A stretch of DNA of 63,199 nt, filler included, from Perkinsus olseni (GCA_013115125.1; 48 parts of 48 records of this genome joined end to end with filler, not necessarily neighbours in it), one strand, 5' to 3'. Counted from the whole stretch's first letter, positions 13,427 through 63,199 are shown. The notes: generated by a model from the sequence alone, not told the origin. A program made the numbers and translations.

Positions 13427-13497
13427 CCTGCATCGCAACACAATGAATGTCTAACTCGAGATCGCACGTCTAGCGGCTTTGCTGCGAGTGTGGCTAG
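13427..13497 (+). mobile_element. Right end of GTG...CTAG element (type A)
   Basis: Near-identical to 31829-31896(rc), 40071-40141 and 56836-56905; ends GTGTGGCTAG|GT and truncates an integrase tail. Confidence 0.85.
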
Positions 13498-14661
13498 GTG
13501 GAGCCAAACCTGCTTCCGGGGAAGCTGGGGACTGCACCAAGGAAGGTCGGGCCGAAGATGCTCGTGACGGTACCGAAGGAGGCTCCTCATCAGTTGCCTC
13601 CTCCATCTCGGGGACCTCAGGGATCTCCGGGGCCAACATCTCATCTCGCTGCACACCAGAGTCTTGAGAGTCAGGGCTCCGTACATCAGCAACCTCGTCA
13701 TTAACCAACAGTTGCGATGCCATCTGGCGTTGAACAGGGCCGGGTCGAACTTCGACACCATGTAGTCTCCAACCAAGCGTTGCATCTGGGGCAAGAGGTA
13801 CCGGAATTGGGCTTGATAGGACAACCGACTCCGCTTCTCGGGCCGAAGCATAGTCACGACCTTGAGGGGGAGTAAACACATCTTCCGGGACCTCATCACC
13901 AAGTCGTCGAAAGGGGAAGCTCGGCGCAGAAGGGGCTTCTTCTACCGGAGGATCCATACGCACAACGCCAAGTTGAGGAGGCACTGCATGAGGCTGAACC
14001 GGATCAGCCAACAAGAAGTCAGTGGAGATGACCTTCTCGGCCAGATCAGGGAAGTGTCGTAGGACCACCGTCTTGTTGTTGACACCTTGGATAAGCTTCA
14101 CGATGTACCAGTCGGGCTGCCACTTGGGAAGGAGCTTGTAACCAGGCTCACGGCCAGAGCGGAAGAGCTTGACTCGAACACGTTGTCCAACATACAGTCG
14201 TTGTCGAGAACGTTCTTGTTCCATAGCTCTACGATGAGGAGCTCCGCCAGCGGTAACCCATTCATCCACCACGTCAGCAATCGTAGCACGAGCTCGGGCC
14301 AAATACTCGGCGTAACCGTCAGGGTCGTACATCAGCGAGGAGAACTGGCTCAAACTAGGTAGCAGAGTCTGAGGAGGCTCTCTACCAAACATCAGGTAAT
14401 ACGGAGAAAACCCAGTGCTTGAATGAGGACAAGTGTTGTACTGCCACAGTACAGGCCGAAGATGTCCTTGCCAATCTCCCACACGTTGAGTATAGGCTCG
14501 TAACAGGTTGAGGATGGTGGAGTTGAACCGCTCGACATAGCCATTGGAGTTGGGATGATGAGGGGTAGAGCGAGCCTTCGCCACTCCCAGAATCTTCATG
14601 GCATCCGCGAAGACTTGGCTCTCAAAGGCACTTCCTTGGTCGCTGAGGAGGCGAGTAGGCG
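13498..14661 (-). CDS. Ty3/Gypsy integrase core and C-terminal tail
   Basis: LLSDQGSAF, STPHHPNSNGYVERFN, YNT.PHSSTGFSPY.LMFGREP, KLLPKW. Confidence 0.93.
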
Positions 14662-14761
14662 NNNNNNNNNNNNNNNNNNNNNNNNNNNNNNNNNNNNNNN
14701 NNNNNTTAATTAATTAANNNNNNNNNNNNNNNNNNNNNNNNNNNNNNNNNNNNNNNNNNNN

Positions 14762-15025
14762 AGCCCAACAGAAGAATAGGATTACCGGGGTCAGCGGAGC
14801 CCGCATGAGTGAGTACAGGTTGGAGTCGCATGCCCTTGGGCAAATTCCTTTTAGGAACCACCGTTATACGAGCACCAGAGTCGATAAGAGCCCTAACAAA
14901 CGGAGTACGGGCTTCTCCAGCAGATAAACGGGCAAAAATAAACGGACCATTAGCCTCACCAAAAGTACAGAGAGAAATCGGTGCCGACGACCGGGAGCCG
15001 CAATCCGGCCGTCGAATTAGTTTCC
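14762..15025 (-). CDS. Retroviral-type aspartic protease, -1 frame relative to gag
   Basis: Open frame GKLIRRPDCG...VRALIDSGARITVVP. Confidence 0.85.
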
Positions 15026-15026
15026 C
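14985..15026 (-). promoter_or_regulatory. -1 programmed ribosomal frameshift signal
   Basis: G GGA AAC slippery heptamer directly before the gag stop, 5-nt spacer, then a 10-bp stem with a 10-nt loop. Confidence 0.85.
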
Positions 15027-15982: not shown

Positions 15983-16184
15983 AGGCGTATTAGTAGNNNN
16001 NNNNNNNNNNNNNNNNNNNNNNNNNNNNNNNNNNNNNNNNTTAATTAATTAANNNNNNNNNNNNNNNNNNNNNNNNNNNNNNNNNNNNNNNNNNNNTTCT
16101 AAACATACCATAGGAGCAACTTCTTCAACCGCGGACGGGATGTGGTAGACGTCTCACCATAGCCCGTAGAGGTGACATGAGGTC

Positions 16185-25396: not shown

Positions 25397-25462
25397 GGGT
25401 CCTTCCCCGCTCGGGCCGCTACATTTGTGAGGTACCCCGCATAGAGCGAGGCCTCCGTCCAC
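25397..25462 (-). mobile_element. Left end of GTG...CTAG element (type C)
   Basis: Reverse complement matches 63133-63198; junction tCTCG|GTGGACGG; truncates the protease at KVLG. Confidence 0.85.
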
Positions 25463-26717: not shown

Positions 26718-26786
26718 GAGCTGGAAACGCGCGCGGGGCCCTACCCACGCGCTGAAAAATAATTGTGACGGGATAACGTCAAACAC
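26718..26786 (-). mobile_element. Left end of GTG...CTAG element (type C-related)
   Basis: gCTAG|GTGTTTGACG; TGACG/CGTCA hairpin, TCACAA, then GGGTAGGGCCCCGCG hairpin shared with 57965-58032. Confidence 0.7.
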
Positions 26787-27114
26787 CTAGCGGTGCGCTG
26801 CCTGATCGGTGCACTTCGTTGGCACCATGCTAGTGCCGGGTCGGTCGGGGGTGGTGCTGGGTGGTTCTGCTCTTGCCGCAACTCCGTTGCGTGCTGCTGA
26901 CTTGCTCTCATGCCGCTGCGCTGTGCTGTACTGGTGCTGGACTGGTTGCGCTGTCTCGCGCCACTTGCCGTAGTGTCGCTCGGGGCAGCTCTAGCTTGAT
27001 CCTATGCCGTCGGCGGTTGCGCTGGCGCGCGTTACTTAGAGTGGTGGTGGGGGGAATTGAACCTGTGACATTGGGCCGGTCCGCGCACCCCACTGCGGTG
27101 GGGACCCCGCACGG

Positions 27115-27187
27115 ACCTTCTGGAGTTTGAACCTGCGACCTGAGGGATGATAGACCTGAGACATGACCATTCGAGTAGTACCTACTG
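27115..27187 (-). pseudogene. Degenerate tRNA-like unit
   Basis: CAGTAG leader, B-box GGTTCAAACTCC, tRNA-like spacing, arms do not pair. Confidence 0.5.
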
Positions 27188-27253
27188 TGACGAGAGTACT
27201 GTTTGTTGAGACTCCTGCACCGATAAGAGAGTGTTGTGTGATAATGCTACTGA

Positions 27254-27330
27254 TTCTCTACCCAGGGTTTGAACCTGGGTCACCAGCATGACAGTCCACA
27301 GCACTAACTACTAGGCTACCCTGACTACTG
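27254..27330 (-). pseudogene. Degenerate tRNA(Asp-GTC)-like unit
   Basis: A-box TAGCCTAGTAG, CT-GTC-AT at the anticodon position, T-arm CCAGGTTCAAACCCTGG. Confidence 0.6.
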
Positions 27331-27496
27331 ACCTGATAGCCTGTGTCTTGAGCACCCCACTTGTCTGACACTTGGAGCTGTCATTGTCTGGCTTCTGTCG
27401 TGTCCCTCTGACTCCCCGAGTCCGAACTTCGCTACTGAACACTCCCACACCCCAGTCGGACACCTAATCCAAGTACTGAGACTGTTTCCTTAATAT

Positions 27497-27573
27497 TTCC
27501 CAACCTGGGATTGAACCCGGGTCACTCGACCAACAACCCAGAACCCTAACCAACTACACTAGTCTGACTACTG
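27497..27573 (-). pseudogene. Degenerate tRNA-like unit
   Basis: CAGTAGTCAG leader shared with the previous unit, A-box TAGTGTAGTTGG, B-box GGTTCAATCCC. Confidence 0.6.
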
Positions 27574-27868
27574 AAGAGACAACTGTAGTAAAATCGACGG
27601 GAATTTTAATTCCAAAACACTAAATCGATTATAGCTCGTAAATGGCTCATAAAATTGAAAAAATTCCTTCACTATAATACTCAGCTCGACGAGAGGAGTC
27701 GATTGGTGACCTTTTCAGCCCCATCCTATGTGCCAATCACGAAATCGGCTTCAGCACTGCGCATTTTTGCAGTGAGCCTCCATACGGCACAATAGAGCGC
27801 GCCCGGGGCCCCTCCCCCAGGCTACAAAAAAAGTAGCGGAGGAGATGAAGATACGCTGCTCCCTGCAC

Positions 27869-27938
27869 CTAGCGACCGAACGTCCAAAGGCCGCTAGAGG
27901 CTCCTCAAGGGGCACTAGGTACCACAGAGGTAGGAGGA
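27869..27938 (-). mobile_element. Right end of GTG...CTAG element (type A-related)
   Basis: 70 bp at contig end; TCTAGCGGC shared with type A; hairpin CTAGCGGCC..GGTCGCTAG ends at GCTAG|GT. Confidence 0.7.
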
Positions 27939-28987: not shown

Positions 28988-31828
28988 GTTGTGGACTATA
29001 CTTAATGCAGGTATATGAAGTTCTCCGTTTCCGTTGAAGTAATCTTCCAGCACTGTGTTGCGTTGAAAGTGAGGAGGAAGCTGGTCATAATGCCACCGCA
29101 ATCATCGTAAGAGAGAACTATTGATGACTTGATTTATTACATTGCGTGCACACAGTGCGCTGCACACCTGTATTTCAGGAACTTCGTCAATCTGTATATT
29201 TCCGTCGAATGCCGGAATATATCTTCTTTATACTTGAGCTTACAAAGGGAGCTAAAGGNNNNNNNNNNNNNNNNNNNNNNNNNNNNNNNNNNNNNNNNNN
29301 NNTTAATTAATTAANNNNNNNNNNNNNNNNNNNNNNNNNNNNNNNNNNNNNNNNNNNNTTAGTCCAGACAGAAGAGCCCACATTGCCAAGTGATACCACG
29401 ACTTCTGCTTGACACTCGTCAATATGTCCTGGAAAGTCCGTGGCGGCTTCTCTGGCGCCGGTCGTGACCACCGGAGAAACCCAGAAGGAGTATCGGAAGC
29501 GTCGTACTCAACGATCGGGGCGTCCATACCGAGCGTCTGGCGGCAGATGCTCCGGCAAAAGAAGGCGAGTCACCCTTAGAGATGCACACGTGCACGCCGT
29601 GACAGGAACAGTGACACGGGGTCTCAACTAGCCTTCACGCCAACCACTCTATGTTCCCGGCCGTAGATTACTCATCCCTCTGAGGGCTCTGTATATTCTG
29701 AGCCTACACTGAGTGTACAGTATAACTTCGGTCTCTGAGTTCTCGGGGGAATTGGGCTACGTACGCGTGCTAACAATGAGAACTCAGCCCCTTCACTCCC
29801 GGCGCGAGCAAGGTCGGGTCGCGAATCAGAAAACGGGAGAAATCGAGGCACAAAAACTCCGAGGGCACGAGTCGTGCAGGTTGATTAAGCAGAATATGCG
29901 AGGAGAATCAGCAATTTCGAAGTCGGGACGTTGCATCCTACGTCAGAGTGGTGACACTGAACCAGGCCGTAGCGACCACATTGATGACTTCCACTCTCGG
30001 CACGCATGCTCACTCTTTACTCAATAGACAGTGTGGCGGCCCAAAAGACGCGAATGAAGAAGTTCTGACAATTGTTTTTGATTGTTCCTTTCCCCCCATT
30101 CTCTTCAACGGAATCGGTTGTCTTTAAGATTTTCTGTGGGGGGGGGGGGCTTTAGTATTCTCACGCTGGTACGCTAGTACGCTGGTCGTGGACTTGATCA
30201 TGAGCCGTTAAGAAAACGGGGAGAAAAGTTGTTGTATACAAACCGTTAGGCCTAGAGGCCGTACACCTCTAGGTCTTATTTTTGATATCGGAGCCCAGGG
30301 AAGGGTGAATGGGGAGTAGCTTTCTTGTGATTCCGCCATACCTCTGGCGCCACAGGCATCAGAGCGCGAAGGGGCAGATAGTATGACACCTCCGCCATCC
30401 GTGCCGGGCCGCGAGGATAAACGTTCCTCCCAAGCAGCGTCTGAAGTACTTCCTCGACAACTGCCTAGGAATAACTTAGAAGGCTCTACCGATAAGTTGG
30501 ATATTGTAGATTGGTGCCAACTCAACCTTGATAGTATGATAGGAAGTGATGTACTTATCTAATCCTAGACGGATCAANNNNNNNNNNNNNNNNNNNNNNN
30601 NNNNNNNNNNNNNNNNNNNNNTTAATTAATTAANNNNNNNNNNNNNNNNNNNNNNNNNNNNNNNNNNNNNNNNNNNNCGGAACTAGCACGCCTGGAGGAT
30701 GGCCAGGCGACCATTACCTATGGTTCTGGTTACGGTCCTACTTACCCTATGATTTTGGGGAGTTGTGACGGTATATCGGATAGTGGGACGTTGACTGAAG
30801 GATTGGTTTGTTGTGGCCGTTCTCATCAACGAGATCCCTGTGATGTCTTATCCACCGGCGACTCTCGAGTCCTCTGGACTTCGAGGACTAGGGACCGCCG
30901 GGAGGTTACTACGGCGGGTGCATCTTCCTTGGGTAACCAAGAGGGCCTATTGGGAGAGCACGCGGGCCACACTCGAGGCATGGTATCATTAGAGGTACCA
31001 TATGACTTTCGAGCTGATATTGGTATCGTAGGGAACCTCGACAGGGTAATGATATCACCCCCATCAAGTTCTGGAAGGGAACGTGTCCGTATGGTGGGGA
31101 TTGGAGAGGATCGATGGGTAATGTCTTCTATGAACAACAATCCCCTGTAATACAGGGGATTGTCCAACACTACCATACCCATCATACAGGGCCTGTATGG
31201 TGGGTATGGTGGTGTTGGTGGTTCTGTTGGTGTCATGGGGAGAGTGGATGTTGGTCATGATTATGGTGCCGCTGTGAAGGGCACACCTTGTACCATTGGT
31301 ATGGCTGCGAGTAATACTGCTACCACTACAGTAATCCCTACTACTAGCTCAGTATGCTGTTATATGTTATCGATTGGTAAGGCTGTCCGTGAGGGCGACC
31401 TACCTAATTCGTCGACCTCTGTTGGTCGAGGAATGCAAGAGACTGCACCATTACTACTTGAAGAATTAAATGATGCAAGGCTCAACCATACTGGAGGATC
31501 TTCCTCAAGTTGTTATGATATAGAAGTAGAGGAAGGGAATTTAGACACCTCTAAGGTGCCAAGGAAGGATAAAGAAGTAAGTAAGGAAAAGGGACGCACA
31601 GGTACCACATCCGTTCAAGATCCCCCAAGAGAGTCCGCCCAAGATCCGGGAGATAAGGATGCAGTGGAGAGAGAAAAGGATTATGTGTCCTTGGATGGAT
31701 CGGATAAGGATCAAAGTAAGCAACGCGGGCAACGGGATGGGGGAAGGAGGGATGGATTAAAGGATTGGCCACCTAAGGATAGGAGTGGCCGGAAAGGATT
31801 TAAAGGAAGGAGCGAACGAGCGAGCGAA

Positions 31829-31896
31829 CTAGGCACACTCGCAGCAAAGCCGCTAGACGTGCGATCTCGAGTTAGGCATTCATTGTGTTGCGATGG
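31829..31896 (-). mobile_element. Right end of GTG...CTAG element (type A)
   Basis: Reverse complement matches 56838-56905; junction GTGTGCCTAG|TT. Confidence 0.85.
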
Positions 31897-39880: not shown

Positions 39881-39949
39881 ACCCCAACGCGCAATGTTTG
39901 GTAGTACTGCGTATGTTTTTGTTTCTGGCGAAACCGGCGCGTTACCCAC
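39881..39949 (-). mobile_element. Left end of GTG...CTAG element (type B variant)
   Basis: tCTAG|GTGGGTAACGCGCCGGTTTCGCCAGAAAC, compared with GTGGTAAGGCGCCGGGTTTGCCAAAAAC at 47787 and 62077. Confidence 0.7.
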
Positions 39950-40141
39950 CTAGACCTATCACTTGCCTTACTTGTGCCTTCCCACGGCATTTACGACCCG
40001 CTGATCCATTCGACTGCTCTTTGTTTCGCTGGTTCACGTATTTGGCTGCATGTATCGCAGACTAATACGACCTCCATCGCAACACAATGAATGCCTAACT
40101 CGAGATCGCACGTCTAGCGGCTTTGCTGCGAGTGTGCCTAG
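39950..40141 (+). mobile_element. Right end of type A element (longest view, up to ~190 bp)
   Basis: Last 70 bp match 56836-56905; junction CCTAG|AT; the upstream extent is inferred. Confidence 0.75.
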
Positions 40142-41090: not shown

Positions 41091-42327
41091 NNNNNNNNNN
41101 NNNNNNNNNNNNNNNNNNNNNNNNNNNNNNNNNNTTAATTAATTAANNNNNNNNNNNNNNNNNNNNNNNNNNNNNNNNNNNNNNNNNNNNTGGGAAAGCA
41201 GTATTTCATCAAATGATGGTCCACCCGGGCGCAGCTCTGTCAACAAAGAAGCACCTCGTTATATTGGAAGAAAACTCCCGTGTGTCGTGGACAGTGAAGT
41301 TGGCGGCCGTCGCGAGAGGCTCGTGTTTTTGTTAGGCGTTTTTCATGTACACTCCACCACTACCGGGATGAGAGACAGACGCCTTGGAGAGATCGTATCT
41401 TCGCAGAGTCACTCGAAAGAAGTAAGGTTACACCACAAACCGCGTACGCGGATGGCTACTCACGCGCAGTTCTCGGTGTGACCCCTGGTGGAGCTTCAGC
41501 CGCGTTCGGACCTGATTCGGTTGCATACGTTTTTGCCTCGAACGCTTCTCCAAGTCTCAGGGCGAGAGCAATCCTCGTGGCGTGTCGAACTACGCCAAGA
41601 TGATGAGGAGTTCAGGTCCTGGCTGCATGTATGCTGCGGTGGCCGTCCAGGTCTGGCGAGGACGACTCCAATGGTCGAGTCCTCCTCATCACTAGTGGTC
41701 TAGATAAGACATTGAGGTGGGGCACCGTTCTTCACTGTGGGAGCGTTGCCCCAGGAATGTCCTTCCGGCAGGTTCTGGGATGGAAACTTCACCAGAATCA
41801 AGATCTGGGAGTTTCCCAAAACGTACATCGGCTCGCTGTGTTGGGCTGCTCAAAGGCACACTTTGTTCGGGGCGGATCATTTCGGGGACTGTGTCTATCA
41901 GTGGACCATCGCTTCATGGACAGAAGTGAGTTATTCACTGGACGAGCTCTAACCGGACGCTGAAGAGTCGGAGTGCCTAGCACTCCCACACTAGCTGGAT
42001 CGCAGTTACGCACCCAGGAGACACCCACCACTCTGAGGCGAATCCATGCTGACTCGGCAGCGCATAGTTCGACTATCAATCGAATTCTATGGATCGATCG
42101 TCTGGAAGCCATTGTTACTGCGGGGATGGACAAGTAGGCGGCTGATCGAGGCTCTGGGTGACCATGGCTCTCAGAAAGATCATTCTATGGGACACGATAC
42201 AATGTCGAACTCTGTACGAGTTGAGCGGTGCGCATACCAAGGGTGTCATGCATTTGGCGTATAGTGATGCGTCATGTAAGAAGCCATAGGGTGTCTGCTC
42301 TCGTGAGGAACTACATTGACTGAAACA

Positions 42328-42399
42328 TACCCGATGCAGGATTCGAACCTACGACCATCTGCTCCGTAGGCAGACATTCTATCCAGCTGAACTAATCGG
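42328..42399 (-). tRNA. tRNA-Arg(ACG), ~2 nt of 5' end cut by the gap
   Basis: Anticodon arm TCTGC-CTACGGA-GCAGA, T-loop GGTTCGAATCC, acceptor CCGAT/ATCGG. Confidence 0.93.
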
Positions 42400-42499
42400 N
42401 NNNNNNNNNNNNNNNNNNNNNNNNNNNNNNNNNNNNNNNNNNNTTAATTAATTAANNNNNNNNNNNNNNNNNNNNNNNNNNNNNNNNNNNNNNNNNNNN

Positions 42500-47721: not shown

Positions 47722-47787
47722 CCAGGCTCGCTGATGTGTCGCTTGCGCGACAGTTTATGGTTTTTGGCAAACCCGGCGCCTTACCAC
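47722..47787 (-). mobile_element. Left end of GTG...CTAG element (type B)
   Basis: Matches 62012-62077; junction cCTTG|GTGGTAAG interrupts the integrase (D)QG motif; TGTCGC-GCAA-GCGACA hairpin. Confidence 0.85.
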
Positions 47788-49798: not shown

Positions 49799-49849
49799 GG
49801 GCAACAGGCGCAAGTACTGTGGGGCCCACAGTACTTGCGCCTGTTGCCC
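49799..49849. repeat. Perfect palindrome, 25-bp arms, 1-nt spacer
   Basis: gggcaacaggcgcaagtactgtggg-g-cccacagtacttgcgcctgttgccc. Confidence 0.95.
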
Positions 49850-50150: not shown

Positions 50151-50227
50151 GTCAGTTTGGCCGAGTGGTCTAAGGCGCCAGACTCAAGTTCTGGTGGAGA
50201 GATCCTCGTGGGTTCGAATCCCACAGC
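50151..50227 (+). tRNA. tRNA-Leu(CAA), 3' end cut by the gap
   Basis: TGGCCGAGTGGTCTAAGGC D-arm, CCAGA-CTCAAGT-TCTGG anticodon arm, long variable arm, GGTTCGAATCC. Confidence 0.93.
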
Positions 50228-50329
50228 NNNNNNNNNNNNNNNNNNNNNNNNNNNNNNNNNNNNNNNNNNNNTTAATTAATTAANNNNNNNNNNNNNNNNN
50301 NNNNNNNNNNNNNNNNNNNNNNNNNNNCG

Positions 50330-51629: not shown

Positions 51630-52774
51630 GAGCTCCTCATCGTAGAGCTATGGAACAAGAACGTTCTCGACAACGACTGTATGTTGGACAACGTGTTCGA
51701 GTTAAGCTTTTCCGCTCCGGCCGTGAGCCTGGTTACAAGCTCCTTCCTAAGTGGCAGCCCGACTGGTACATCATGAAGTTCATCCAAGGTGTCAACAACA
51801 AGACGGTGGTCCTACGACATTTCCCTGATCTGTCTGAGAAGGTCATCATCTCCACTGACTTCTTGTTGGCTGACCCGGTTCAGCCTCATGTAGTGCCCCC
51901 TCAACTTGGCGTTGTGCGTATGGACCCCCCGGTAGAAGAAGCCCCTTCTGCGCCGAGCTTTCCCTTTCGACGACTTGGTGATGAGGTTCCGGAAGATGTG
52001 TTTACTCCCCCTCAAGGTCGTGACTATGTTTCGGCCCGAGAAGCGGAGACGGTTGTTCTATCAAGCCCAATTCCGGTACCTCTTGTCCCGGACGCAACGC
52101 TTGGTTGGAGACTACATGGTGTCGAAGTTCGACCGGGCCCTGTTCAACGCGAGATGGCACCGCAAATGTTGGTTGATGACGAGGTTGCTCATGTACGGAG
52201 CCCTGACTCTCAGGACTCTGGTGTGCAGCGAAACGAGATGTTGGCCCCGGAGATCCCCGAGGTTCCCGAGATGGAGGAGGCAGCTGATGATGAGCCTCTT
52301 TCGGTACCGTCACGAGCATCTTCGGACCGACCTTCTTTGGTGCAGTCTCCAGCTTCTTCGGAAGCAGTTGTGGACCCACCAAGTGCGGATCGTGACATCT
52401 CTCTGCTACCGGCGCCATTGACTAGGACTCCGGCATCTGATGCTTCGATGGAGGTGCATCGAGAAGAGAATTCTGAGGCGGATGACTTGTCGTCGCTTCA
52501 TGATCTCTTTGCGACTCCTGAGGGTAGTTCGGCCCGTAGTGCTGCTACCCCTTTGGCCGAAGGTTCGGCCCGTTCAGAAGGTTCTGACCACCCAAGTCCC
52601 GTGGTTGCCGCTGATGACCCTGGCGACCATCAAGATGTTGCTGCGGATTCTCAACCTCAAGGTCCTTCTCAGCCTGAGGTAGCCCCCTCGCATGTGTCGA
52701 GGTCTGGTCGTACGGTTCGACCTCCTAGGAGGTATTCGCCTGGTGCTTATACTTCCCAGGGTGGCCTTAAGTAA
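51630..52774 (+). CDS. Ty3/Gypsy integrase C-terminal tail (paralogue of 13498-14661)
   Basis: Near-identical protein, ends SRSGRTVRPPRRYS; polypurine tract at 52819-52830. Confidence 0.9.
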
Positions 52775-55365
52775 GGTCTATGTGAAAATCCCACCCTTGA
52801 CCCGTGATAGGATTTTGCGGGGAGGAGAGGTNNNNNNNNNNNNNNNNNNNNNNNNNNNNNNNNNNNNNNNNNNNNTTAATTAATTAANNNNNNNNNNNNN
52901 NNNNNNNNNNNNNNNNNNNNNNNNNNNNNNNACTCTGAGTCATCCACAGATGGGACTCGAACGGCTGTCAACAATAACTCAGTGCGTGCCTCCGGCTCCC
53001 AACACCTGCACTAAATAAACATCATGTCCCACCGCTGCATTTTTGTGTCGCGTGTCCCCACACGGTCGGCTTTGATGATATTTGATGGAGTTCCGGACCG
53101 AGACTCTCGGTCCATAACTCGTGCATACCGTATCAGTAATATAATAGGGAGAGCACGAGTTGATGGACGGACGAATAAATCACCAGCTACAGCTGTGGAG
53201 CACTTTGCACCATTCAAGCGCTCTAGCCTATTCCACTTCCTCTGTGTGCTCTGTCAATACAGTGCGTTCGCTTTTGATATGCAAATCGCAAAAACCGGGG
53301 TTTCTCCCTTAGTACGGAGCTTTAAGGGTGAAAGTTGGACTGCTCATGTATTTCTAAGAGAGGAATCCAATGGTGTATCGACCAGCCGTTTCATCGACCG
53401 TTTCATCGTTGTAGAGAGCGCGAAGTGAATTTCGCGCGCGCCAAGTGTTCGGTTTTGGTATGCAACCGTGCCGTTAAGAGGAATTACGCGACGGTAACCA
53501 CACGGCAGGGTCCGTGCGCATTGGGTAGCACTACGTAGAGCCGTATGCTGCTAACACCGGGCTCGCGTAGCACTGTACGCTACAAAATTACCTCGCTTTA
53601 CGATTTTTCGTTGACCCGTGCCTCGCACCATGTAATGATCGATTTGCGGCCGATAACTGGATGATCTGATGCTCGCGGATCTTGCACTACCTGGTGAGAC
53701 CCTCTAAATGTCAAAAAGACCGGAAAGAGGCACACCGCGAGCTTCTTCACTCATGATTGGGCGCACGGTGCTCGGACGTGCGCACGTTATGAACAGTTTC
53801 GTGCACGAAACGGCTCGGATAACAGTACTTCATCAATGTTTTCGGCAACGCATTGCGATTAGCTTGCGATTCGTGTGCGAACTATCGCCCAACTCGCAAA
53901 AATAACGAAAATTTCGTACAATGATAACGCCATGCACTCATATGTGTGGCTTGGGCTGTTTAGTTTAACAGCCTCGATCTACAGCATTAAGCCCTCCAGG
54001 AGAGTATGGGAACAGCGCAGCGCACCCGCGAGAGCACCAAACCTGAGACCCGAAAACGCCGAACCTGCGACCCGTACGCTGGGCCGGACTGCAGGCCGCA
54101 TCTTGGGACTCCGATGAAAGTGCTCCGAGCGGGNNNNNNNNNNNNNNNNNNNNNNNNNNNNNNNNNNNNNNNNNNNNTTAATTAATTAANNNNNNNNNNN
54201 NNNNNNNNNNNNNNNNNNNNNNNNNNNNNNNNNTGTCATTCTTGGATTCAACAATGTCATTCTTGTCTGCTCACGTGTCAAACTTGCACGGGAAATGGTG
54301 TAGTAGTCTTCTTGTTGTTCTTGGTAGTAGTAGTAGTAGTGTTAGCAACAGCAGCAGCAGCAACAGCAGTAGCAGCACAGTATAGCATAGTATCAATGGC
54401 CTCCCATTATTACTATGATGATGAAGTAACCTTAAAGTTCATCTACCATAATACCACTGATGGGCATCATCATCATCACGAGTCGTAGGAGTAGGAGTGC
54501 AGGGGGGAAGTAGTGATGTATAGAGTTAAGCAGATGTGAAATAGTAATTGTATACTACCAGAAAGAAAAAGAATAAGCAGAACAGCGAATAAAAATGTTA
54601 ATAGATTATGCCAAGTGGACGGTATCAGCCTAGATAACCGATGATCATGGCCCTTGAACACGCTTCAGCTTCTTCCCCTCTCATGATGATGATGATGATG
54701 ATGATACAGTTTCAGTGGATTGTTGTGTAGAACGCAGTGGAATAGTATGATAATGTGAAGATACAGTATAAGAATGAGAATACTGTATTATCGTTAGCAT
54801 TATTATGTACACAGAGATACCGATTTATGGAGCTGTGTTGTGGTAGTAGCAGCTCCTTAGATGAATTGACAACACAATGCTCATTAAATCTTAAACACCA
54901 TCTTATCATCATCATGATGATGATGTTTATGGATAGGAAAGATAACAACTAGTACGACCGGGCTATGCGGGCTTTTATCACATAAGAAGTGAGCATCATA
55001 ATGGGGACATTGTGTGTAGGTATCCGTCTACTATTGAAGAGCGAAAGAAGTGTGTCATAGTTATTCAACTACTGTTAGTACTCATGTGTTGATGATAAGA
55101 GGGTATGGTAGTGATGATACTGATGAATCTTCACTCGCCAACAACAAGAGTCGTAGAGCATCATAATATACGTAGCTGATACCTGGTCATTAGCGAACCT
55201 GATGTAACACTCATTCCTTGCACTGCGAAGTCAGTGTTTATTCTCGATAATCTACTATGTTGTTTACTATAATTATTATTACCATAATTCATCCTACGAA
55301 AACTCTTTTTCATGCCCAATACAAGCTGATCCATAATCATCACCATGTGCATGTACATGACGTTC

Positions 55366-55433
<68 letters not shown>

Positions 55434-55534: not shown

Positions 55535-56735
55535 ACCTTGGGCTCGGTACCAGATCCACGAATAGTGACAGTCGCCTGATTGTCAAAGTAAAGAGTAATC
55601 ATCTGAGCATCAGGAGTCATCGGTAAAGTGGACTTCTTGTCCTTATTTCTCGAATCATAACCAGTAGTAACATCACGGACATCAGCTATTTTAGATGAAC
55701 CCAACTCGGTCTTGTAGTTACCGTTACTGCGGAACTCGTCAAACATCTGCTTCATAACCTTCGGATCATCGCAGATGAAATAACCATTATGTTGAGCAAA
55801 GAAACCAACCATCTTACGAAGTTCATTCAGTCGTTCAAGAAGAGTGATACCTTTCTCCTTACGCCAGTAGTTAGCCATCTCGCACCACACACTGCAGGCG
55901 CTGATACCATCCTTATCGGGCACGCTCATAGTAAGTGCACTTCCCAAGGCCTCCTCGTAAGCCGTACAGTGGACCAGATTCGGGTGTTTGGCGGTCATTT
56001 CCAACGACTTGTTGGCCATCCACTTGAAGCCTGTGAGAGTATCAACATAAACTCCGCCGTAGTAATCAGACAAGGCCTTGAGCATCTTAGAGGACACCGT
56101 CGAGTTGATGACCAGACAATTCTTGGGATCGACACCACGACGATGGGCCATCAACAACTGCCAGTCACCGAAAATGGTACCAAGCTCATCACCAGTGAAC
56201 TGATGCCACGACCCGTCCTTCTGCTTCTCGCAAGAAGTAAAACGATCGGCATCCGGATCATTAGCCAATACATAATCAGCATCCTCATCAAGAGCTTGTT
56301 GTTTACTCATATCGAGGGCACCCTTCTCCTCAGGATTTGGGAAAGCTACGGTAGAGAACTCCGGATCAGGATGAGCTTGTGCTTCAACGATTGAGACACA
56401 ACTCTCGGGGATACCGAACTTGTCCAGCAAACCAGTCGCAAACGGCAGACCGACACCTTGCATGGCCGTGTAGACGAACTTCAAGTTGCATTCCTTATTG
56501 AGGTCGGGGAATCGGCATAGTTCATGATACATCTGATCGATGTAGGTATACAAGGCATCATCGTAGGGGTCGATGGTCTTCGACTGGGCGTCTTCCTTCA
56601 ACAGACAAGTATCCAAATCCAACATATTCAAAGCATCTTCCCACGGCGTCAGATTGTCAGCGATTTTGGCCTCAATCTCAGAATCAACTGGAGGAATGAT
56701 TTGAGCACCATTATCGCCGTAGACTTTGAAACCGT
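55535..56735 (-). CDS. PGM2: Phosphoglucomutase/phosphopentomutase (PGM2-type), partial
   Basis: GFKVY..NGAQIIPP, FPNPEE, ANDPDADR, TLTGFKW, YEEALG, DKDG, RGSGTEPK. Confidence 0.93.
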
Positions 56736-56835: not shown

Positions 56836-56905
56836 CTCCATCGCAACACAATGAATGCCTAACTCGAGATCGCACGTCTAGCGGCTTTGCTGCGAGTGTG
56901 CCTAG
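56836..56905 (+). mobile_element. Right end of GTG...CTAG element (type A)
   Basis: Junction GTGTGCCTAG|GT; GCGGC-TTT-GCTGC hairpin 12 nt from the end. Confidence 0.85.
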
Positions 56906-57964
56906 GTCCTGAGAGGCCCTATACCTTTGTTCAAGCTCAGCTTTCCAAGACGGTGAGCCAGAATGCTCAGTTGGCGACAGTACAGATAGGCGGAGATGAG
57001 GTCTCGACCCATACAGTTCTCGACACCAACTCTGGTATAGCCGCCAAGGATCAGGTCGCCGACAAGCCCAACGACTCAGCATCACGGTCACCAGCTGATA
57101 ATAAGAAGTCTTCTGCCAGACCCAAGACATGCTGGAGGTGTTTTCAACGTAATCATTCTGCACAAGATTGCCGTTGCCCTCAACCTAAAAAGATAGGGTT
57201 GAGGTGTCGGTGTGGAAGTGGTAAACACGTGACTGCTGTATGCCCCGTTCGTCCAGAGCAACTGAAGTGTGAAAGATGCAGTGACTCATCAACCCTACCC
57301 AATCAGATCCCGCACAGGTCAGGTGTGTGTCCCTATGCCTGGGAAGATATCCAGAAGGTGAAGAATGCTGTTGCTCCGGGTCCTCCAACTAGCCTGGCAC
57401 ATATTGATGGTGTTCTAAGTACTCAACTTCCCGAACTGGAGATCTGTGCCCTTGCCACTGAAGGCGTTACCAGCCGAGCTCTTCAACCTCGTACGCCTAT
57501 CACAGTCGGTGTACCTCATTCATCTTCGACGGTCTCAGTCTTGGCTCTCTGGGACACAGGGGCATCTGGCACGTTCGTCAGGGTAGACGTGTTGGAGGCT
57601 CTAGCTGCTAAATCGGGGAAGAAGTTCACGAAGCCCTCATCTTCTTCTAGTACGGTATGTGCAACCTTGGCTGACAACAAGACCAAAATCGAGCTTTTGG
57701 GAACTTGTCTCATCAAACTGACTTCCCCTAAGACTACAGCTACAGTTCGTGCCTTTGTTACTGACCGGTTGTCCTATCCGTTGGTGATTGGCGTCCCGGC
57801 ACTACTTGCTCTGAGAGCAAATCTTCATTTTGATTCTAATGGAGAGGTTCACATCACAACCGGGGCATCAACGGTCCCCATCTCTACGTCAACCGTTAGT
57901 CCTGTTAAGGGCTCTCTTGTCGCGACTAACCCCACCTGTGCTACAGCTCCATCGGTCGGCCTTG
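56906..57964 (+). CDS. LTR gag-protease fragment (three zinc knuckles, LWDTG)
   Basis: CWRCFQRNHSAQDC, CRCGSGKHVTAVC, CERC..H..VC, ALWDTGASG, LVIG. Confidence 0.85.
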
Positions 57965-58032
57965 GTGAACGGAGGGCTCGCTTCCATGCGGGGTACCTCA
58001 CAAATGTTAGCCCGAGCGGGAAGGGCCCCGCG
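57965..58032 (+). mobile_element. Left end of GTG...CTAG element (type C, diverged)
   Basis: cCTTG|GTGAACGG; homologous to 63133-63199 with the hairpin kept and its loop altered. Confidence 0.8.
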
Positions 58033-59203: not shown

Positions 59204-59258
59204 GAAAATTTTTTAGGCAAGTCGCGGAGCGGCTCCGCGACTTGCCTAAAAAATTTTC
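59204..59258. repeat. Perfect palindrome, 27-bp arms, 1-nt spacer
   Basis: gaaaattttttaggcaagtcgcggagc-g-gctccgcgacttgcctaaaaaattttc. Confidence 0.95.
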
Positions 59259-60618: not shown

Positions 60619-60718
60619 NNNNNNNNNNNNNNNNNNNNNNNNNNNNNNNNNNNNNNNNNNNNTTAATTAATTAANNNNNNNNNNNNNNNNNNNNNNNNNN
60701 NNNNNNNNNNNNNNNNNN

Positions 60719-61463
60719 ACTCTCCAACTCACCCCTCGTTACCGCTATCGGCTCAGTGGCCCAACACAACACCCCTACTGATGTAAGAGACTCTATAACG
60801 GCTAATGTCCGTTATCCATCGGTGGGAGGGGTTCGACTCCCTTATACAGCACCGCCGCTGGTGTTGAGCATTATACGATCGTGTGCTCAGGATTACCCCC
60901 CAATGAGATCAGACTCGTGGTTCCGCTTTGGTACCTACCTAGGAACTTGCAACTTTGGCGAAGACTGGGAAGAGGAGAAAACTACCAAGAAGAGCATCAA
61001 TATTCACATCATGGATCGTCAGTTTCATACACACGCCGCTCGTTGCCCCGAAACTGCAACTCGACCGTCCTTTCTAATATCGTAGGCGAGGCAATGGTGT
61101 CTGTCGGACGTTAGTCTCATCAATGTTTGTTTCAGCTACAGAGATGACACAAAGCTGCACTGGTATGCCACGGGTGACAGTTGGGAAGTCAGCCTTCCGA
61201 CCGTTATCTTCCCACGAGGCCCTCCTGAAAACACTGGCCGTGATCCCCTTCGAGAGCTAAAATATGAGGGAGAGGATTACTCTATTGCAGATTATTGTTC
61301 TACCGTTATACAGGCCGTTGGGAAACTCTGGACCTTCAAAGATTTGTGCAACAAATTCCATGAAGGGTACCTAGCAGCCATGGAAGCTGCTGATCGTGAA
61401 GGATGGCAGAAGGTTCCAAACAAAGGCATCAATCATACGGATTATTTCCCTCCTCGAAGATAG
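60719..61463 (+). CDS. Hypothetical protein, 3' part with intron 61082-61135
   Basis: A GT-AG intron joins ..PSFLIS to YRDDTK..FPPRR* in frame. Confidence 0.55.
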
Positions 61464-62009
61464 AGTGACAGTCCTCGTTTTCTTACAATTTATTAACAAT
61501 TCACCGTTAAGTTTTTTTCCATATTTATGATTTTTATGAAGCACATGTTTGAAACTGGATGATGATGTTGTTGTTGTTGTTGTTGTTGTGCGTAGCTGCG
61601 ATGGTGCTTAGTCTGGTCAGACGAGATGTTTTCTTCGCGGAGTTATCGATCACCCTTCCCGCTGCCCTTCCCTCTGCTTCCTCGCGACCGTGGTGTCTTG
61701 AAAGTGAAATTTCTGATGCTCTGGAATTTTTCATTGTGACATCACTTTTTGCTTACATACTTCTGTCGATTCTCTCGCAACCGCAGTGCACTCTCTCGAT
61801 GCTTCACTTGCGACAAACACGATATCTCGTTTTTACCGAGTAAATGATTGAAACGGTCACACTGTCTTGAAATCGATTAGTAACAGTAATGACAACAACA
61901 GCGTACAACNNNNNNNNNNNNNNNNNNNNNNNNNNNNNNNNNNNNNNNNNNNNTTAATTAATTAANNNNNNNNNNNNNNNNNNNNNNNNNNNNNNNNNNN
62001 NNNNNNNNN

Positions 62010-62077
62010 GCCCAGGCTCGCTGATGTGTCGCTTGCGCGACAGTTTATGGTTTTTGGCAAACCCGGCGCCTTACCAC
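62010..62077 (-). mobile_element. Left end of GTG...CTAG element (type B)
   Basis: Matches 47722-47787; junction gCTGG|GTGGTAAG inside RNase H. Confidence 0.85.
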
Positions 62078-63132
62078 CCAGCAACCATTTACTACCACTG
62101 GCTGTAGATGTTGTAGTCGACACGTGATTAACTTCAGAGACAGCGTGCACAACCCATGCCCCCCCTGTCGAAGAAGCATCTGCACAACACTCGAGTACAC
62201 TCGGTGGAGAGGAACCGACGGAGTGAGTACACGGTTCTTGTAGCAAACCATTTAGACGTTGAAGACAATTCACTACCACCTCAGACTCTTTAACAGTTAG
62301 CGGTAAAGGATCATCCCACTTCGATGATTTACTACCTGCGATCCTTCGCAGCAGATCACCCAAGGCTCTAGTCTCAGCATGCTGATAGAGCGGGTCAGAG
62401 CCAGTACTCGCACAACCAGCTGCAGCAAATATCGCGCGCTTAGACCACGTAGTAACATTTAACAAATTCGAAGGGAAAGAAGACTTCTTGCAACGTAACA
62501 CCAGCTGACCATGATCAATTTGCCAAAGCAGACCCAAGTGCTTGAAAGATTCACCTTCTGCTAAGCGAGCTGTGTTACGTTCAATCTGGGGAAACTCGAA
62601 ATGAGTCCCCCTATACGTTCTATTTGTTCAATAAAACGCGAGACAACATCTGAATAATCACCCCAACATAGTATTGAGAGATCATCGAGATAAACGTATA
62701 CCAGAGAATGGCCTCGTAGGCAGCACTGATCTTGCGGTGATAGAGCAGCAAACGCTTTCTGCAGCAAGTAGTCACTCAGGCATATGAACAACCCACATGG
62801 GCCTACATTGAGGCCGAATACAAGCCGCGAACAGGAAAACGTTTGGTTATTGGACTTCAAAGTCAATGGTCGAGAAGTATGGAGGCGGTAAAACGCCTGA
62901 GCCCCGTCAAGCGTAATCAGCCTACACTTCTCTTCACTACGCCAGTTCAATCGTATCGACTGAAGAATCTGGGAACAAGTAGGGCCGCTATAACTAGCAT
63001 TCGGCAATGATTGGTTTTCCCGGCGAGCATCTACAACAGGCCTACACGGGGTACTTCGACCCGGTGAAGGGAGGGGAAACACTAGAAGTCCAGGACCCAT
63101 ATCATTACCACTTTTTAGACCTTCACTGCTAG
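62078..63132 (-). pseudogene. Divergent LTR pol (RT + start of RNase H), frameshifted
   Basis: RPVVDAR..N, LDGAQAF, RLVFGL..GP, YLDD, KHLG, ADASSTGG; frame changes at the C5/G5 run 62607-62611. Confidence 0.85.
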
Positions 63133-63199
63133 GTGGACGGAGGCCTCGCTCTATGCGGGGTACCTCACAAATGTAGCGGCCCGAGCGGGGAAGGACCCG
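63133..63199 (+). mobile_element. Left end of GTG...CTAG element (type C)
   Basis: gCTAG|GTGGACGG; hairpin GAGG-CCTCGC-TCTAT-GCGGGG-TA-CCTC. Confidence 0.85.

What the first reader, a model, noticed from the sequence alone, without database searches (positions are those of the whole stretch)
13427..63199. Family of TIR-less, hairpin-ended mobile elements (GTG...SCTAG) inserting at NCTNG^NT
Seen: many contigs stop 65-71 bp inside recurring non-coding sequences. Right-end/host junctions read gCTAG|gT (13497), cCTAG|tT (31829 rc), cCTAG|aT (40141), cCTAG|gT (56905, and candidate 1418). Host/left-end junctions read tCTCG|GTG (25462 rc), tCTAG|GTG (39949 rc), cCTTG|GTG (47787 rc, 57965), gCTGG|GTG (62077 rc), gCTAG|GTG (63133). 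Positions 2, 3, 5 and 7 (C, T, G, T) never vary. Position 4 varies only at left junctions and position 6 only at right junctions, which fits a join at the central G better than a target duplication. The ends have hairpins but no TIR. Known: Helitrons end in CTRR with a hairpin about 11 nt upstream but insert at A^T, and IS91-family elements insert beside a CTTG/GTTC tetranucleotide without duplication. Inference: an HUH-type or recombinase-mobilised family I do not recognise. The pairing of left with right ends is inferred, and no transposase is visible here.
Basis: partly seen in the sequence, partly recalled or inferred. Interest (0 to 1): 0.9.

Follow-up and report, generated by a model that had tools for sequence, protein, structure and literature searches.

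The report
Unclassified high-copy transposon ends, Perkinsus
Short contigs of a Perkinsus (oyster and clam parasite) genome break inside a very abundant, recently active mobile DNA family that starts with GTG, ends with CTAG, has no inverted ends and apparently makes no target duplication; which enzyme moves it is still unknown.

Summary
The window is 48 contigs of about 1.2 kb from a Perkinsus species. I added three members: R2, L-C and L-D.

- **Junction motif:** all 8 left junctions read CTNG|GTG and all 6 right junctions read CTAG|NT.
- **Inverted ends:** none. 0 of 15 left-by-right comparisons beat shuffles.
- **Hairpins:** not statistically supported. Only 1 of 11 folds beats shuffles.
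- **Abundance and mobility:** public DNA runs show the ends at hundreds to thousands of times unique depth. A 4%-diverged relative lacks both insertions that bound contig 56836-58032. CTAG|GTG head-to-tail joints exist in DNA.
- **Empty sites:** two read CTNG^GT, and one of them argues against a 4-bp duplication.
- **What is missing:** no transposase, no certain full-length copy and no RNA data.

My best reading (0.35) is a rolling-circle, HUH-type family with IS91/Helitron-like logic but different termini and target. The main rivals are a Crypton-like circle integrase and an introner whose GT...AG ends are splice sites. I found no description in print, but Repbase, Dfam and paper supplements could not be searched.

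The parts
13427..13497 (+). R-type 3' end, junction gCTAG|GT; the flank is the integrase-side region of an LTR retrotransposon, antisense to the element
31829..31896 (-). R-type 3' end, junction cCTAG|TT
39950..40141 (+). Last 192 bp of an R-type element inside a contig, junction cCTAG|AT; its upstream part is cut off by the L-B' insertion at 39949/39950
   Evidence: loose ends before 56839 agree with 40048-40077
56836..56905 (+). R-type 3' end, junction cCTAG|GT; absent at this place in the relative X8
27869..27938 (-). R2 3' end; shares the block TCTAGCGGC(C)TTTG and the terminal CTAG with R; junction CTAG|GTG directly onto the L-D start
1354..1418 (+). Candidate third 3' end (cCTAG|GT); a single copy, so it could be chance
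25397..25462 (-). L-A 5' start, junction tCTCG|GTG; the flank is a gag-like ORF (zinc knuckle), sense
63133..63199 (+). L-A 5' start, junction gCTAG|GTG; the flank is a reverse-transcriptase-like ORF, antisense
57965..58032 (+). L-A' 5' start (84% to L-A), junction cCTTG|GTG; absent at this place in X8
47722..47787 (-). L-B 5' start, junction cCTTG|GTG; the flanking ORF looks integrase-like by eye only (no Pfam hit), antisense
62010..62077 (-). L-B 5' start, junction gCTGG|GTG; the flank is a reverse-transcriptase-like ORF, sense
39881..39949 (-). L-B' 5' start, junction tCTAG|GTG, inserted inside an R-type element (nested)
26718..26786 (-). L-C 5' start, junction gCTAG|GTG; its 9-bp stem is the only end hairpin that beats shuffles
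26787..27868 (-). Begins with the L-D start (GTG plus the conserved GGGGCCCC module at the same distance as in L-A' and L-C) and ends in CTAG directly before L-C. Candidate complete 1,082-bp non-coding copy in a head-to-tail array. It carries four degenerate tRNA-like units. That its CTAG is the true 3' end is inference.
52377..52383 (-). Paralogous empty site (93% over 754 bp to 13494-14244), reading CTTG^GTG where the filled copy has ...CTAG|GTG

Best explanation
These are the two ends of a large family of mostly non-coding DNA transposons in a Perkinsus genome. The family multiplied recently, to hundreds or thousands of copies.

**Shown**
- An element runs exactly from 5'-GTG to CTAG-3'.
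- It lies directly after a host CTNG and usually before GT or NT.
- It has no inverted ends.
- As far as the data go, it makes no target duplication.
- Every place where DNA is cut or joined fits one strand-specific word, CTNG^NT: the left boundary reads CTNG^GTG, the right boundary CTAG^NT, and the empty target CTNG^GT.

**Inferred mechanism**
- One single-strand nicking and joining enzyme of the HUH or rolling-circle type acts, as in bacterial IS91 and eukaryotic Helitrons.
- It nicks after the host CTNG at the left end.
- It peels or copies one strand until it meets the element's own CTAG terminator.
- It rejoins that strand after a CTNG elsewhere.
- Because each inserted copy ends in CTAG^NT, it recreates a target. 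This explains the head-to-tail joints and arrays.

The copies seen here would be non-autonomous passengers of an enzyme encoded elsewhere in the genome.
For: **Real, abundant, recently mobile**
- In run X1, 135 contigs were laid on 56836-58032, and in X2 324. Only one contig in each run covers the unique middle, because the flat depths of 80.2 and 141 equal those of records 5 and 11.
- Summed depth over the R end is 2,667-3,351 times unique depth in X1 and 3,549-4,833 times in X2.
- Summed depth over L-A' is 237-658 times in X1 and 2,161-2,401 times in X2. The tool warns that this is not a copy number.
- In the relative X8 the ratios are only 4-9 (R) and 55-71 (L-A'). (All.)
- X8 differs at 41 of 1,059 bases. 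Its 5,672-nt contig spans 56902-57960 and continues with unlike sequence on both sides, so both insertions are absent there.
- Copies within the window are 95.8-100% identical.

**Motif**
- 8 of 8 left junctions read CTNG|GTG and 6 of 6 right junctions read CTAG|NT.
- Both empty sites read CTNG^GT: CTTG^GT in the paralog at 52380/52379 and CTAG^GT in X8.

**No target duplication**
- N differs within both near-identical subfamily pairs: L-A has C and A, L-B has T and G.
- N is A in 6 of 6 right ends against 3 of 7 left flanks. One-sided exact test by hand gives p about 0.05.
- The filled right end reads CTAG where its paralog's empty site reads CTTG.

**No inverted ends**
- 0 of 15 left-by-right pairs beat shuffles.

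**Head-to-tail joints**
- CTAG|GTG joints occur in DNA runs at depth 2,955 in X2 and about single-copy depth in X1 and X2.
- One such joint lies inside contig 26718-27938.

**End conservation, as recalled for Helitron families**
- The 3' end is the more conserved one. One R type has 4 copies here, against six left-end types (L-A, L-A', L-B, L-B', L-C, L-D).
- R and R2 share a block 18-32 nt from the end.

**Context**
- A RepHel gene is reported in the dinoflagellate Symbiodinium microadriaticum (PMC8788227, passage seen).
Against: - **No enzyme seen.** 38 reading frames scanned in Pfam show no Rep/HUH, Pif1-type helicase or Y1 transposase. The window samples only about 58 kb.
- **Helitron hallmarks fail.** The 5' end is GTG, not TC. 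The target is G^NT, not A^T.
- **Hairpins are weak.** The R 3' stem (GCGGC/GCTGC, ending 12 nt from the tip) and most other end folds are no better than shuffles.
- **One empty site misfits.** In X8 the match stops at 57960, four bases before the junction. A CTTG follows only after five extra bases and is then followed by TC, not NT.
- **Pairing unproven.** Both junctions of a single insertion have not been seen, except in the candidate 26787-27868.
- **Small numbers.** The evidence against a 4-bp duplication rests on p about 0.05 plus one paralog comparison.
- **Biased flank sample.** Flanks taken from run contigs are biased towards copies that resemble this locus.
Confidence: 0.35

Rival explanations
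1. Crypton-like element. A tyrosine (or other site-specific) recombinase excises a double-stranded circle whose joint reads CTAG|GT. It recombines that joint with look-alike CTNGNT sites. The CTNG on the left and the CTAG on the right are then the short direct repeats that such recombination leaves.
For: - Cryptons have neither inverted nor long direct repeats, only 4-6-bp direct repeats at both termini that are taken to be the recombination substrate (PMC3212892, passages seen). The layout CTNG...CTAG fits that form.
- Target and joined ends share one 6-nt pattern.
- CTAG|GTG joints exist in DNA.
Against: - The two 4-mers differ in 4 of 7 left flanks compared with 0 of 6 right ends.
- The host-type base at -2 on the left and the element-type base at -2 on the right put both strand exchanges within about one base. 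That does not suit the 6-8-bp overlaps of tyrosine recombinases or the 2-bp overlaps of serine recombinases (established knowledge, recalled). With these small numbers this is only about p 0.04 (my estimate).
- Hundreds to thousands of copies would be unusual for Cryptons (recalled).
- No recombinase is seen in 38 reading frames.
Confidence: 0.2
2. Introner. Whatever enzyme moves it, the element is exactly a spliceosomal intron (GT...AG). Insertions in transcribed genes are spliced out without a scar, and that tolerance let the family reach thousands of copies. The GT and AG are kept for splicing.
For: - All six left-end types start with GT and all three right-end types end with AG.
- With no duplication, removal from GT to AG would restore the host sequence exactly.
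- Both insertions bounding 56906-57964 lie in sense in a gag-protease frame that evolved under constraint. 24 of 38 differences to X8 fall at third codon positions and 22 are synonymous.
- R has CTAAC 46 nt from its end.
- Introners are known in the related Amoebophrya (PMC7789003, passages).
- Introners derived from helitrons, cryptons and elements of unknown mechanism are reported (PMC12130899, abstract and passages).
Against: - Beyond GT and AG the ends are poor splice sites. They read GTGGAC, GTGAAC, GTGGTA, GTGGGT, GTGTTT and GTGCAG, against GTGAGT in the one plain intron seen (9633-9687).
- There is no pyrimidine run before CTAG, and an internal CTAG lies between CTAAC and the end.
- The invariant C and T at -4 and -3 of the target have no role in splicing.
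- Orientation to the host frame is mixed, about 4 sense to 3 antisense.
- All hosts identified here are retrotransposons or non-coding DNA.
- None of the 6 contigs that carry a recognisable ordinary cellular gene ends in the family.
- Elements are at least 192-260 nt, against a 55-nt ordinary intron.
Confidence: 0.2
3. An ordinary cut-and-paste (DDE) element that duplicates a 4-bp CTNG target, as IS5, IS1380 and IS701-type bacterial elements do at CTAG. Its inverted repeats would be too short or too far inside to see.
For: - In both empty sites the homology runs through the 4-mer. A single CTNG in the target flanked by CTNG...CTAG in the filled state looks like a duplication.
- One run contig shows an R end reading CTTG before an L-A' start (loose end before 57959).
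Against: - No inverted repeat: 0 of 15 pairs beat shuffles, and the first 12 nt share only 2-5 bases.
- Right 4-mers are CTAG in 6 of 6 but left 4-mers in only 3 of 7.
- The paralog empty site reads CTTG against CTAG in the filled copy.
Confidence: 0.08
4. Termini of a retroelement (LTR, tyrosine-recombinase retrotransposon, or SINE) that have been delimited wrongly.
For: - Most flanks are retrotransposon genes: rve_3, zinc knuckles, protease motif, YLDD.
- Shifted by one base, all left ends start with TG.
- The candidate full copy carries tRNA-like units.
Against: - No right end finishes in CA.
- Left ends interrupt gag, protease and reverse-transcriptase frames in both orientations.
- X8 has the same frame without the insertions.
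- 5' ends are exact, not truncated as with LINE-driven copies.
- There is no A-rich or simple-repeat tail.
- Rfam finds no small-RNA head in any end.
Confidence: 0.1

Closest known systems
IS91 / ISCR rolling-circle insertion sequences (bacteria)
   Same: - One end abuts a host tetranucleotide (CTTG or GTTC in IS91, recalled). Here the host word is CTNG, and it is CTTG in 2 of 7 left flanks.
- No target duplication and no matching inverted ends.
- Transfer stops at a similar word at the other end.
- Tandem or head-to-tail products occur.
   Different: - The host here is a eukaryote.
- Copies seen are non-coding and number hundreds to thousands.
- The target word is looser (N at position 3) and has a T two bases downstream.
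- No HUH transposase has been seen.
Helitrons (eukaryotic rolling-circle transposons)
   Same: - The 3' terminus CTAG fits CTRR.
- A short stem lies about 12 nt from the tip in R.
- No inverted repeats and no duplication.
- Abundant non-autonomous copies with a conserved 3' end and variable 5' ends.
- A possible captured host fragment (tRNA-like units).
- A RepHel is reported in a dinoflagellate (PMC8788227).
   Different: - The 5' end is GTG, not TC.
- Insertion is at CTNG^NT, not A^T.
- The hairpin is not statistically supported.
- No Rep/Hel has been seen.
IS200/IS605 family (Y1 HUH, single-strand transposition)
   Same: - Insertion lies directly 3' of a specific 4-5-nt host word.
- The element's own right end finishes in a similar but distinct word.
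- No inverted ends and no duplication.
- Subterminal stems (recalled).
   Different: - That family is prokaryotic. No eukaryotic genomic family of this kind is known to me.
- Stems here are mostly not significant.
- No TnpA or TnpB-like frame has been seen.
Cryptons (tyrosine-recombinase DNA transposons)
   Same: - No inverted or long direct repeats.
- 4-6-bp direct repeats at both termini are thought to be the crossover site (PMC3212892).
- A circle joint is expected.
   Different: - The repeats here are not identical in most cases.
- Copy number is far higher.
- No recombinase has been seen.
Introner elements / transposon-derived introns
   Same: - Boundaries are exactly GT...AG.
- The family is abundant and near-identical, in a lineage next to dinoflagellates and Amoebophrya, where introners abound (PMC7789003, PMC12130899).
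   Different: - Splicing has not been shown.
- The splice-site context is weak.
- The insertions seen lie in retrotransposons, in both orientations.
- Amoebophrya introners have inverted repeats of 8-20 nt and direct repeats of 3-5 nt. These elements do not.

Membership tests
Helitron | 3' terminus CTRR | tested here: met
   CTAG in 6 of 6 right ends
Helitron | 5' terminus TC and insertion between host A and T | tested here: not met
   5' GTG in 8 of 8. The host base before the element is G in 8 of 8. After the element comes N then T. The hallmark itself is recalled.
Helitron | Short hairpin about 10-12 nt before the 3' end | tested here: inconclusive
   R has a 5-bp stem ending 12 nt from the tip. 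The R2 stem reaches the tip. Folds are no better than shuffles (z +0.33, -0.94, +1.05).
Helitron | Rep (HUH) plus Pif1-type helicase protein in autonomous copies | not testable with these tools
   No whole genome is held. None of the 38 window reading frames has it.
IS91 / ISCR | One end abuts a fixed host tetranucleotide, without duplication | tested here: met
   CTNG before the 5' end in 8 of 8. The data favour no duplication. The IS91 feature is recalled.
IS91 / ISCR | HUH (Y2) transposase gene; bacterial host | tested here: not met
   The host is a eukaryote: the PGM fragment is 92% identical to Perkinsus marinus. No transposase is seen.
IS200/IS605 | Subterminal hairpins at both ends that present the cleavage words | tested here: inconclusive
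   Small stems exist in every left end. Only L-C beats shuffles. A GC-rich module is conserved 33-68 nt from the 5' end in L-A', L-C and L-D.
Crypton | No inverted repeats; short identical direct repeats at both termini | tested here: inconclusive
   No inverted repeats. The 4-mers CTNG and CTAG are alike but differ in 4 of 7 left flanks. No single insertion has both ends in hand.
Crypton | Tyrosine recombinase gene | not testable with these tools
   No full-length autonomous copy is available.
Introner | Element boundaries supply GT...AG | tested here: met
   GT in 8 of 8 and AG in 6 of 6
Introner | Copies sit in genes, in sense, and are spliced from RNA | not testable with these tools
   No whole genome and no RNA data. 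In this window the hosts are retrotransposons or non-coding DNA and orientation is mixed.
LTR retrotransposon | TG...CA termini with a 4-6-bp duplication | tested here: not met
   No right end finishes in CA. Left ends interrupt gag, protease and RT frames.
TIR transposon / MITE | Terminal inverted repeats | tested here: not met
   0 of 15 left-by-right pairs beat 200 shuffles. The first 12 nt share 2-5 bases. Only the outer 65-100 nt could be compared.

The most novel reading that the evidence does not exclude
This is a 'scarless introner'. The nicking word of the transposon (CTNG^GT ... CTAG^) makes the whole element, first base to last, a GT...AG spliceosomal intron. It inserts with no duplication at sites ending in G^GT. 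Every sense insertion in a transcribed gene can then be removed exactly. That would be a direct route from a rolling-circle or other unknown-mechanism transposon to perfect new introns, in the sister lineage of dinoflagellates.
Probability: 0.15. Interest if true: 0.85.

Novelty: new variant of a known kind. Interest (0 to 1): 0.6.

Why it matters
- **Transposon biology.** If the ends belong to a rolling-circle or HUH-type element, this would be a eukaryotic lineage whose termini (GTG...CTAG) and target (CTNG^NT) differ from every Helitron variant I know and resemble bacterial IS91 logic. That bears on how such transposons diversified in alveolates.
- **Intron origins.** If the GT...AG ends are used by the spliceosome, the family would be a clean model of intron gain without target duplication.
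- **Assembly.** The family is the commonest cause of contig breaks in this sample (12 of 96 ends). Any assembly or annotation of this parasite's genome has to deal with it.
- **Recent activity.** The copy-number contrast with the 4%-diverged relative points to a very recent burst.

Tried and rejected
- **Whole genome.** None is held for this window, so ends could not be paired or counted directly.
- **Laying reads on several contigs at once.** I then laid one contig.
- **RNA.** No RNA holder is listed. X7 is only guessed to be RNA. Its ratio of end depth to unique depth resembles that of the DNA runs, so it says nothing about expression or splicing.
- **Exact-pattern scans.** A 30-nt R-end stretch in metagenome contigs and in prokaryote genome contigs, and a 22-nt L-A stretch in metagenome contigs, gave 0 matches each.
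- **Interior of the R element through predicted proteins.**
  - The 46-residue open frame of 39950-40087 found nothing among longer proteins.
  - In the representative library it found only 14 low-identity (32-44%) hits, each matched in several short stretches, which I read as chance matches to repetitive proteins.
- **A wasted search.** The first homology search for the phosphoglucomutase fragment used 'longer' lengths and gave only hits of 44% identity or less. The repeat with default lengths named the genus.
- **Rfam.** At gathering and at E up to 1, nothing lies on any end.
- **Earlier findings of this scan.** There is nothing for this genome or these sequences. The word searches gave only Naegleria notes and bacterial CTAG-target MITE notes.
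- **Rejected: adapter or vector artefact.** The ends have many variants and flanks in 3 studies, and one copy lies inside a contig.
- **Rejected: LTR ends.** There is no CA terminus.
- **Rejected: spliced-leader RNA genes.** The flanks do not end in the leader sequence (passages of PMC9399869).
- **Rejected: Dada transposons of Perkinsus.** From memory these have inverted ends and 6-7-bp duplications. The passages of PMC3706591 that I saw describe their tRNA-gene targets and 6-bp target duplications.
- **Weak flank similarity.** The similarity between the two R flanks at 13498 and 56906 (3 of 300 shuffles) is a gapped, patchy alignment that I take as chance.

Full report
**What the window is.**
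The 63,199 bases are 48 contigs of 1,190-1,253 bp, sorted by length and joined by N44-TTAATTAATTAA-N44 spacers. No whole genome is held. A 399-residue phosphoglucomutase fragment (55537-56733, minus strand) is 92% identical to proteins named from Perkinsus marinus. It is also 92% identical to a partial P. olseni protein and 79% identical to a P. chesapeaki protein. The window's G+C content of about 48% matches the 47.4% given for P. marinus (table in PMC7789003, seen). I therefore treat the source as a Perkinsus species, a genus-level inference from one gene.

About half of the contigs carry retrotransposon genes: RVT_1 with RNase H, integrase domains, zinc knuckles and an endonuclease-RT. Others carry ordinary genes without breaks: phosphoglucomutase, a cation-efflux protein, a sugar transporter and an ALMT-like protein.

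**Check of the observation.**
Self-BLAST shows these repeats:
- one right-end type, R, in four copies that are 95.8-100% identical (13427-13497, 31829-31896 reverse, 40071-40141, 56836-56905);
- left-end type L-A in two copies at 98.6%, plus an 84% variant L-A';
- left-end type L-B in two copies at 98.6%.

L-B' (39881-39949) is a diverged relative of L-B (0 of 300 shuffles reach the score).

I found three further members on contig 26718-27938. Read on the minus strand, it starts with a right end, R2, that shares the block TCTAGCGGC(C)TTTG and the final CTAG with R. It ends with a left end, L-C. The sequence directly after R2's CTAG is itself a left end, L-D. L-D starts with GTG and has the same GC-rich module (...GGGaAGGGCCCCG...) at the same distance from the GTG as L-A' and L-C (0, 0 and 3 of 300 shuffles).

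In all 12 cases at contig ends, the contig stops 65-71 nt inside the repeat. This is what a short-read assembler does at a high-copy repeat. Twelve of 96 contig ends are of this kind, against six that end in (GTT)n.

**The junction motif.**
All 8 left junctions read C-T-N-G | G-T-G, with N = C, A, T, T, G, A, A, A. All 6 right junctions read C-T-A-G | N-T, with N = G, T, A, G, G, G. The flanks are otherwise unrelated, and CTAG is rare in the window at 0.62 of expectation. The motif is therefore not chance.

One caution applies. CTAG alone at 65-71 nt from a contig end is expected about 1.7 times among 96 ends (my estimate). The single-copy candidate at 1418 is therefore not established.

**Is the 4-mer host or element, and is there a duplication?**
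Within both near-identical subfamily pairs, the only difference next to the boundary is N (L-A: C and A; L-B: T and G). N, and with it the C and T further out, is therefore host sequence. On the right side the 4-mer is CTAG in 6 of 6, against 3 of 7 on the left (one-sided exact test by hand, p about 0.05).

Contig 13427-14661 has a 93% paralog over 754 bp in contig 51630-52831. The paralog lacks the R end. At the matching place it reads CTTG^GTG, where the filled copy reads CTAG|GTG. A copied target would have kept CTTG. The numbers are small, and no single insertion with both junctions is in hand.

**No inverted ends, weak hairpins.**
None of 15 left-by-right comparisons scores above shuffles, and the first 12 nt share only 2-5 bases. 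Small stems can be drawn in every end. Of 11 folds, only L-C is better than its shuffles (z -3.4), and the others range from -1.05 to +1.05. 'Hairpin-ended' is therefore not supported as a statistical statement. A conserved subterminal GC-rich module in L-A', L-C and L-D is supported.

**Evidence from public runs.**
Contig 56836-58032 has an R end on its left and an L-A' start on its right. I laid it against the contigs of four coded runs.
- **Depth.** In X1 and X2 the unique middle is covered by exactly one contig each, at flat depths of 80.2 and 141. The other 134 and 323 laid contigs sit on the two 70-nt ends.
  - Summed depth over the R end is 2,667-3,351 times (X1) and 3,549-4,833 times (X2) that of the middle.
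  - Summed depth over L-A' is 237-658 times (X1) and 2,161-2,401 times (X2).
  - The tool warns that summed depth is not a copy number. Together with the count of distinct contigs, it indicates hundreds to thousands of copies.
- **The relative X8.** It differs at 41 of 1,059 bases. Its 5,672-nt contig matches 56902-57960 and runs on with unlike sequence on both sides, so that copy lacks both insertions.
  - On the left its sequence enters the match at the CTAG, so the empty target reads CTAG^GT.
  - On the right the match stops at 57960, four bases before the junction. A CTTG appears only after five extra bases and is followed by TC. This does not fit the model cleanly and is unexplained.
  - X8 also holds far less of both ends, at 4-9 and 55-71 times unique depth. 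That points to a burst in the lineage of the window.
- **Joints.** Contigs that join the R end directly to the L-A' start (CTAG|GTG) exist at depth 2,955 in X2, about 21 times unique depth. A variant with five bases between the ends occurs at about single-copy depth in X1 and X2. Because an inserted copy ends in CTAG^NT, it recreates the target word. Head-to-tail neighbours in the same orientation are therefore expected, and contig 26718-27938 shows such an array. Extrachromosomal circles cannot be told apart from tandems with these data.

**Hosts and orientation.**
The middle of contig 56836-58032 is a gag-protease frame with a CCHC knuckle and an LWDTGAS motif. 24 of 38 differences to X8 fall at third codon positions and 22 are synonymous. 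Other flanks are as follows:
- a region after an integrase domain (rve_3);
- a gag-like frame with a zinc knuckle;
- a frame that looks integrase-like by eye but has no Pfam hit;
- a reverse-transcriptase-like frame with YLDD;
- the inside of an R element, as a nested insertion.

Orientation relative to the host frame is mixed, about four sense to three antisense. None of the six contigs with a recognisable ordinary cellular gene ends in the family. Short contigs bounded by repeats are a biased sample of repeat-rich DNA, so this says little about target preference.

**A possible complete copy.**
On contig 26718-27938 the 1,082 bp between R2's CTAG and L-C's GTG (26787-27868, minus strand) begin with L-D and end in CTAG. 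If that CTAG is the true 3' end, this is a full non-coding copy. It has no Pfam-recognisable frame and carries four degenerate tRNA-like units. It is equally possible that L-C simply landed at an internal CTAG of a longer element.

**How it most likely works.**
Three places are cut or joined in one round of movement. The left boundary reads CTNG^GTG, the right boundary CTAG^NT and the empty target CTNG^GT. All three fit one strand-specific word, CTNG^NT. Both strand exchanges must lie within about one base, and there are no inverted ends and no duplication.

That pattern is what a single-strand nicking and joining enzyme of the HUH class produces. It parallels three known families, all recalled from memory:
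- IS91: host tetranucleotide CTTG or GTTC beside one end, with termination at a like word.
- IS200/IS605: insertion 3' of a fixed word, with a different word ending the element.
- Helitrons: CTRR 3' end with a nearby stem, a conserved 3' end, variable 5' ends and abundant non-autonomous copies.

A RepHel gene is reported in a dinoflagellate (PMC8788227, passage). I put this reading at 0.35. It is an inference from junction anatomy alone.

No Rep, helicase, Y1, tyrosine or serine recombinase, or non-retroviral DDE enzyme occurs in the 38 reading frames scanned. Two Helitron hallmarks, 5' TC and the A^T target, are not met. I therefore do not file the family as a Helitron.

**Rivals.**
- **Crypton-like circle integration (0.2).** It fits the published description 'no inverted repeats, 4-6-bp direct repeats at both termini' (PMC3212892). 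It is strained by the unequal 4-mers and by the copy number.
- **Introner (0.2).** The boundaries are exactly GT...AG, and related lineages are full of introners (PMC7789003). Helitron-, Crypton- and unknown-mechanism introners are in print (PMC12130899). However, the splice context is poor compared with the one plain intron in the window (9633-9687), the CT of the target has no splicing role, and no RNA data were available. This reading is about function and could be true together with any mechanism.
- **DDE element with a 4-bp duplication (0.08), or mis-delimited retroelement ends (0.1).** These fit worse, as set out in the Rival explanations section.

**Novelty and limits.**
Searches of the held papers found no description of such a family in Perkinsus. 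The searches were:
- Perkinsus with 'introner';
- with 'transposable elements' and 'genome assembly';
- with intron and splice-site terms;
- for the draft-genome papers;
- with 'Helitron';
- with Crypton, tyrosine recombinase and Repbase.

Repbase and Dfam could not be searched, although curated P. marinus repeats exist there (PMC3706591). The supplements of the introner surveys were closed. The draft-genome paper for P. olseni and P. chesapeaki is not in the library; it appears only among the references of other papers. The family may therefore already have a name. On what I could test, it is a new variant of a known kind: a transposon without inverted ends or target duplication, with its own termini and target word.

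Noticed in passing
window 26787-27868 (-): Four degenerate tRNA-like units with GGTTCAAnnCC T-arm boxes lie in a row inside the candidate full-length element. Neither ARAGORN nor Rfam calls them. They could be a captured or decayed tRNA gene array.
   Followed up: partly
window 5078-5133, 49799-49849, 59204-59258, 31137-31163: Near-perfect palindromes of 51-56 nt (96-98%) and one of 27 nt. They may be fold-back elements or assembly artefacts.
   Followed up: no
window 7212-7267: An exact 28-bp tandem duplication inside a reading frame shifts the frame. The joint between the two units reads CTAG|AT, which fits the family's target word.
   Followed up: no
window 38570-39335 (-): An alcohol-dehydrogenase-like gene has a one-base frame break around 38750-38770. 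It is either a pseudogene or an assembly error.
   Followed up: no
window 42327-42402 (-), 50151-50232 (+): Two contigs end exactly in tRNA genes, one of them tRNA-Arg(ACG). This fits the very high tRNA gene copy numbers reported for P. marinus (PMC3706591, passage seen).
   Followed up: no
six contig ends (2705, 22651, 25296, 34631, 41090, 55434): (GTT)n/(AAC)n microsatellites are the second most common cause of contig breaks in this sample.
   Followed up: no
window 9633-9687 (+): The one ordinary-looking intron seen is 55 nt, GTGAGT...TTCCTTCCAG, in an ALMT/FUSC-like transporter gene. I used it as the only local yardstick for splice sites.
   Followed up: partly
whole window: CTAG is under-represented at 0.62 of expectation, even though it ends a very abundant repeat.
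   Followed up: no
run X8 against X1/X2 on window 56836-58032: The relative X8 holds far less of both ends at 90% likeness or more (4-9 and 55-71 times unique depth). L-A' is several-fold richer in X2 than in X1 relative to R. This suggests subfamily bursts that differ between isolates.
   Followed up: partly
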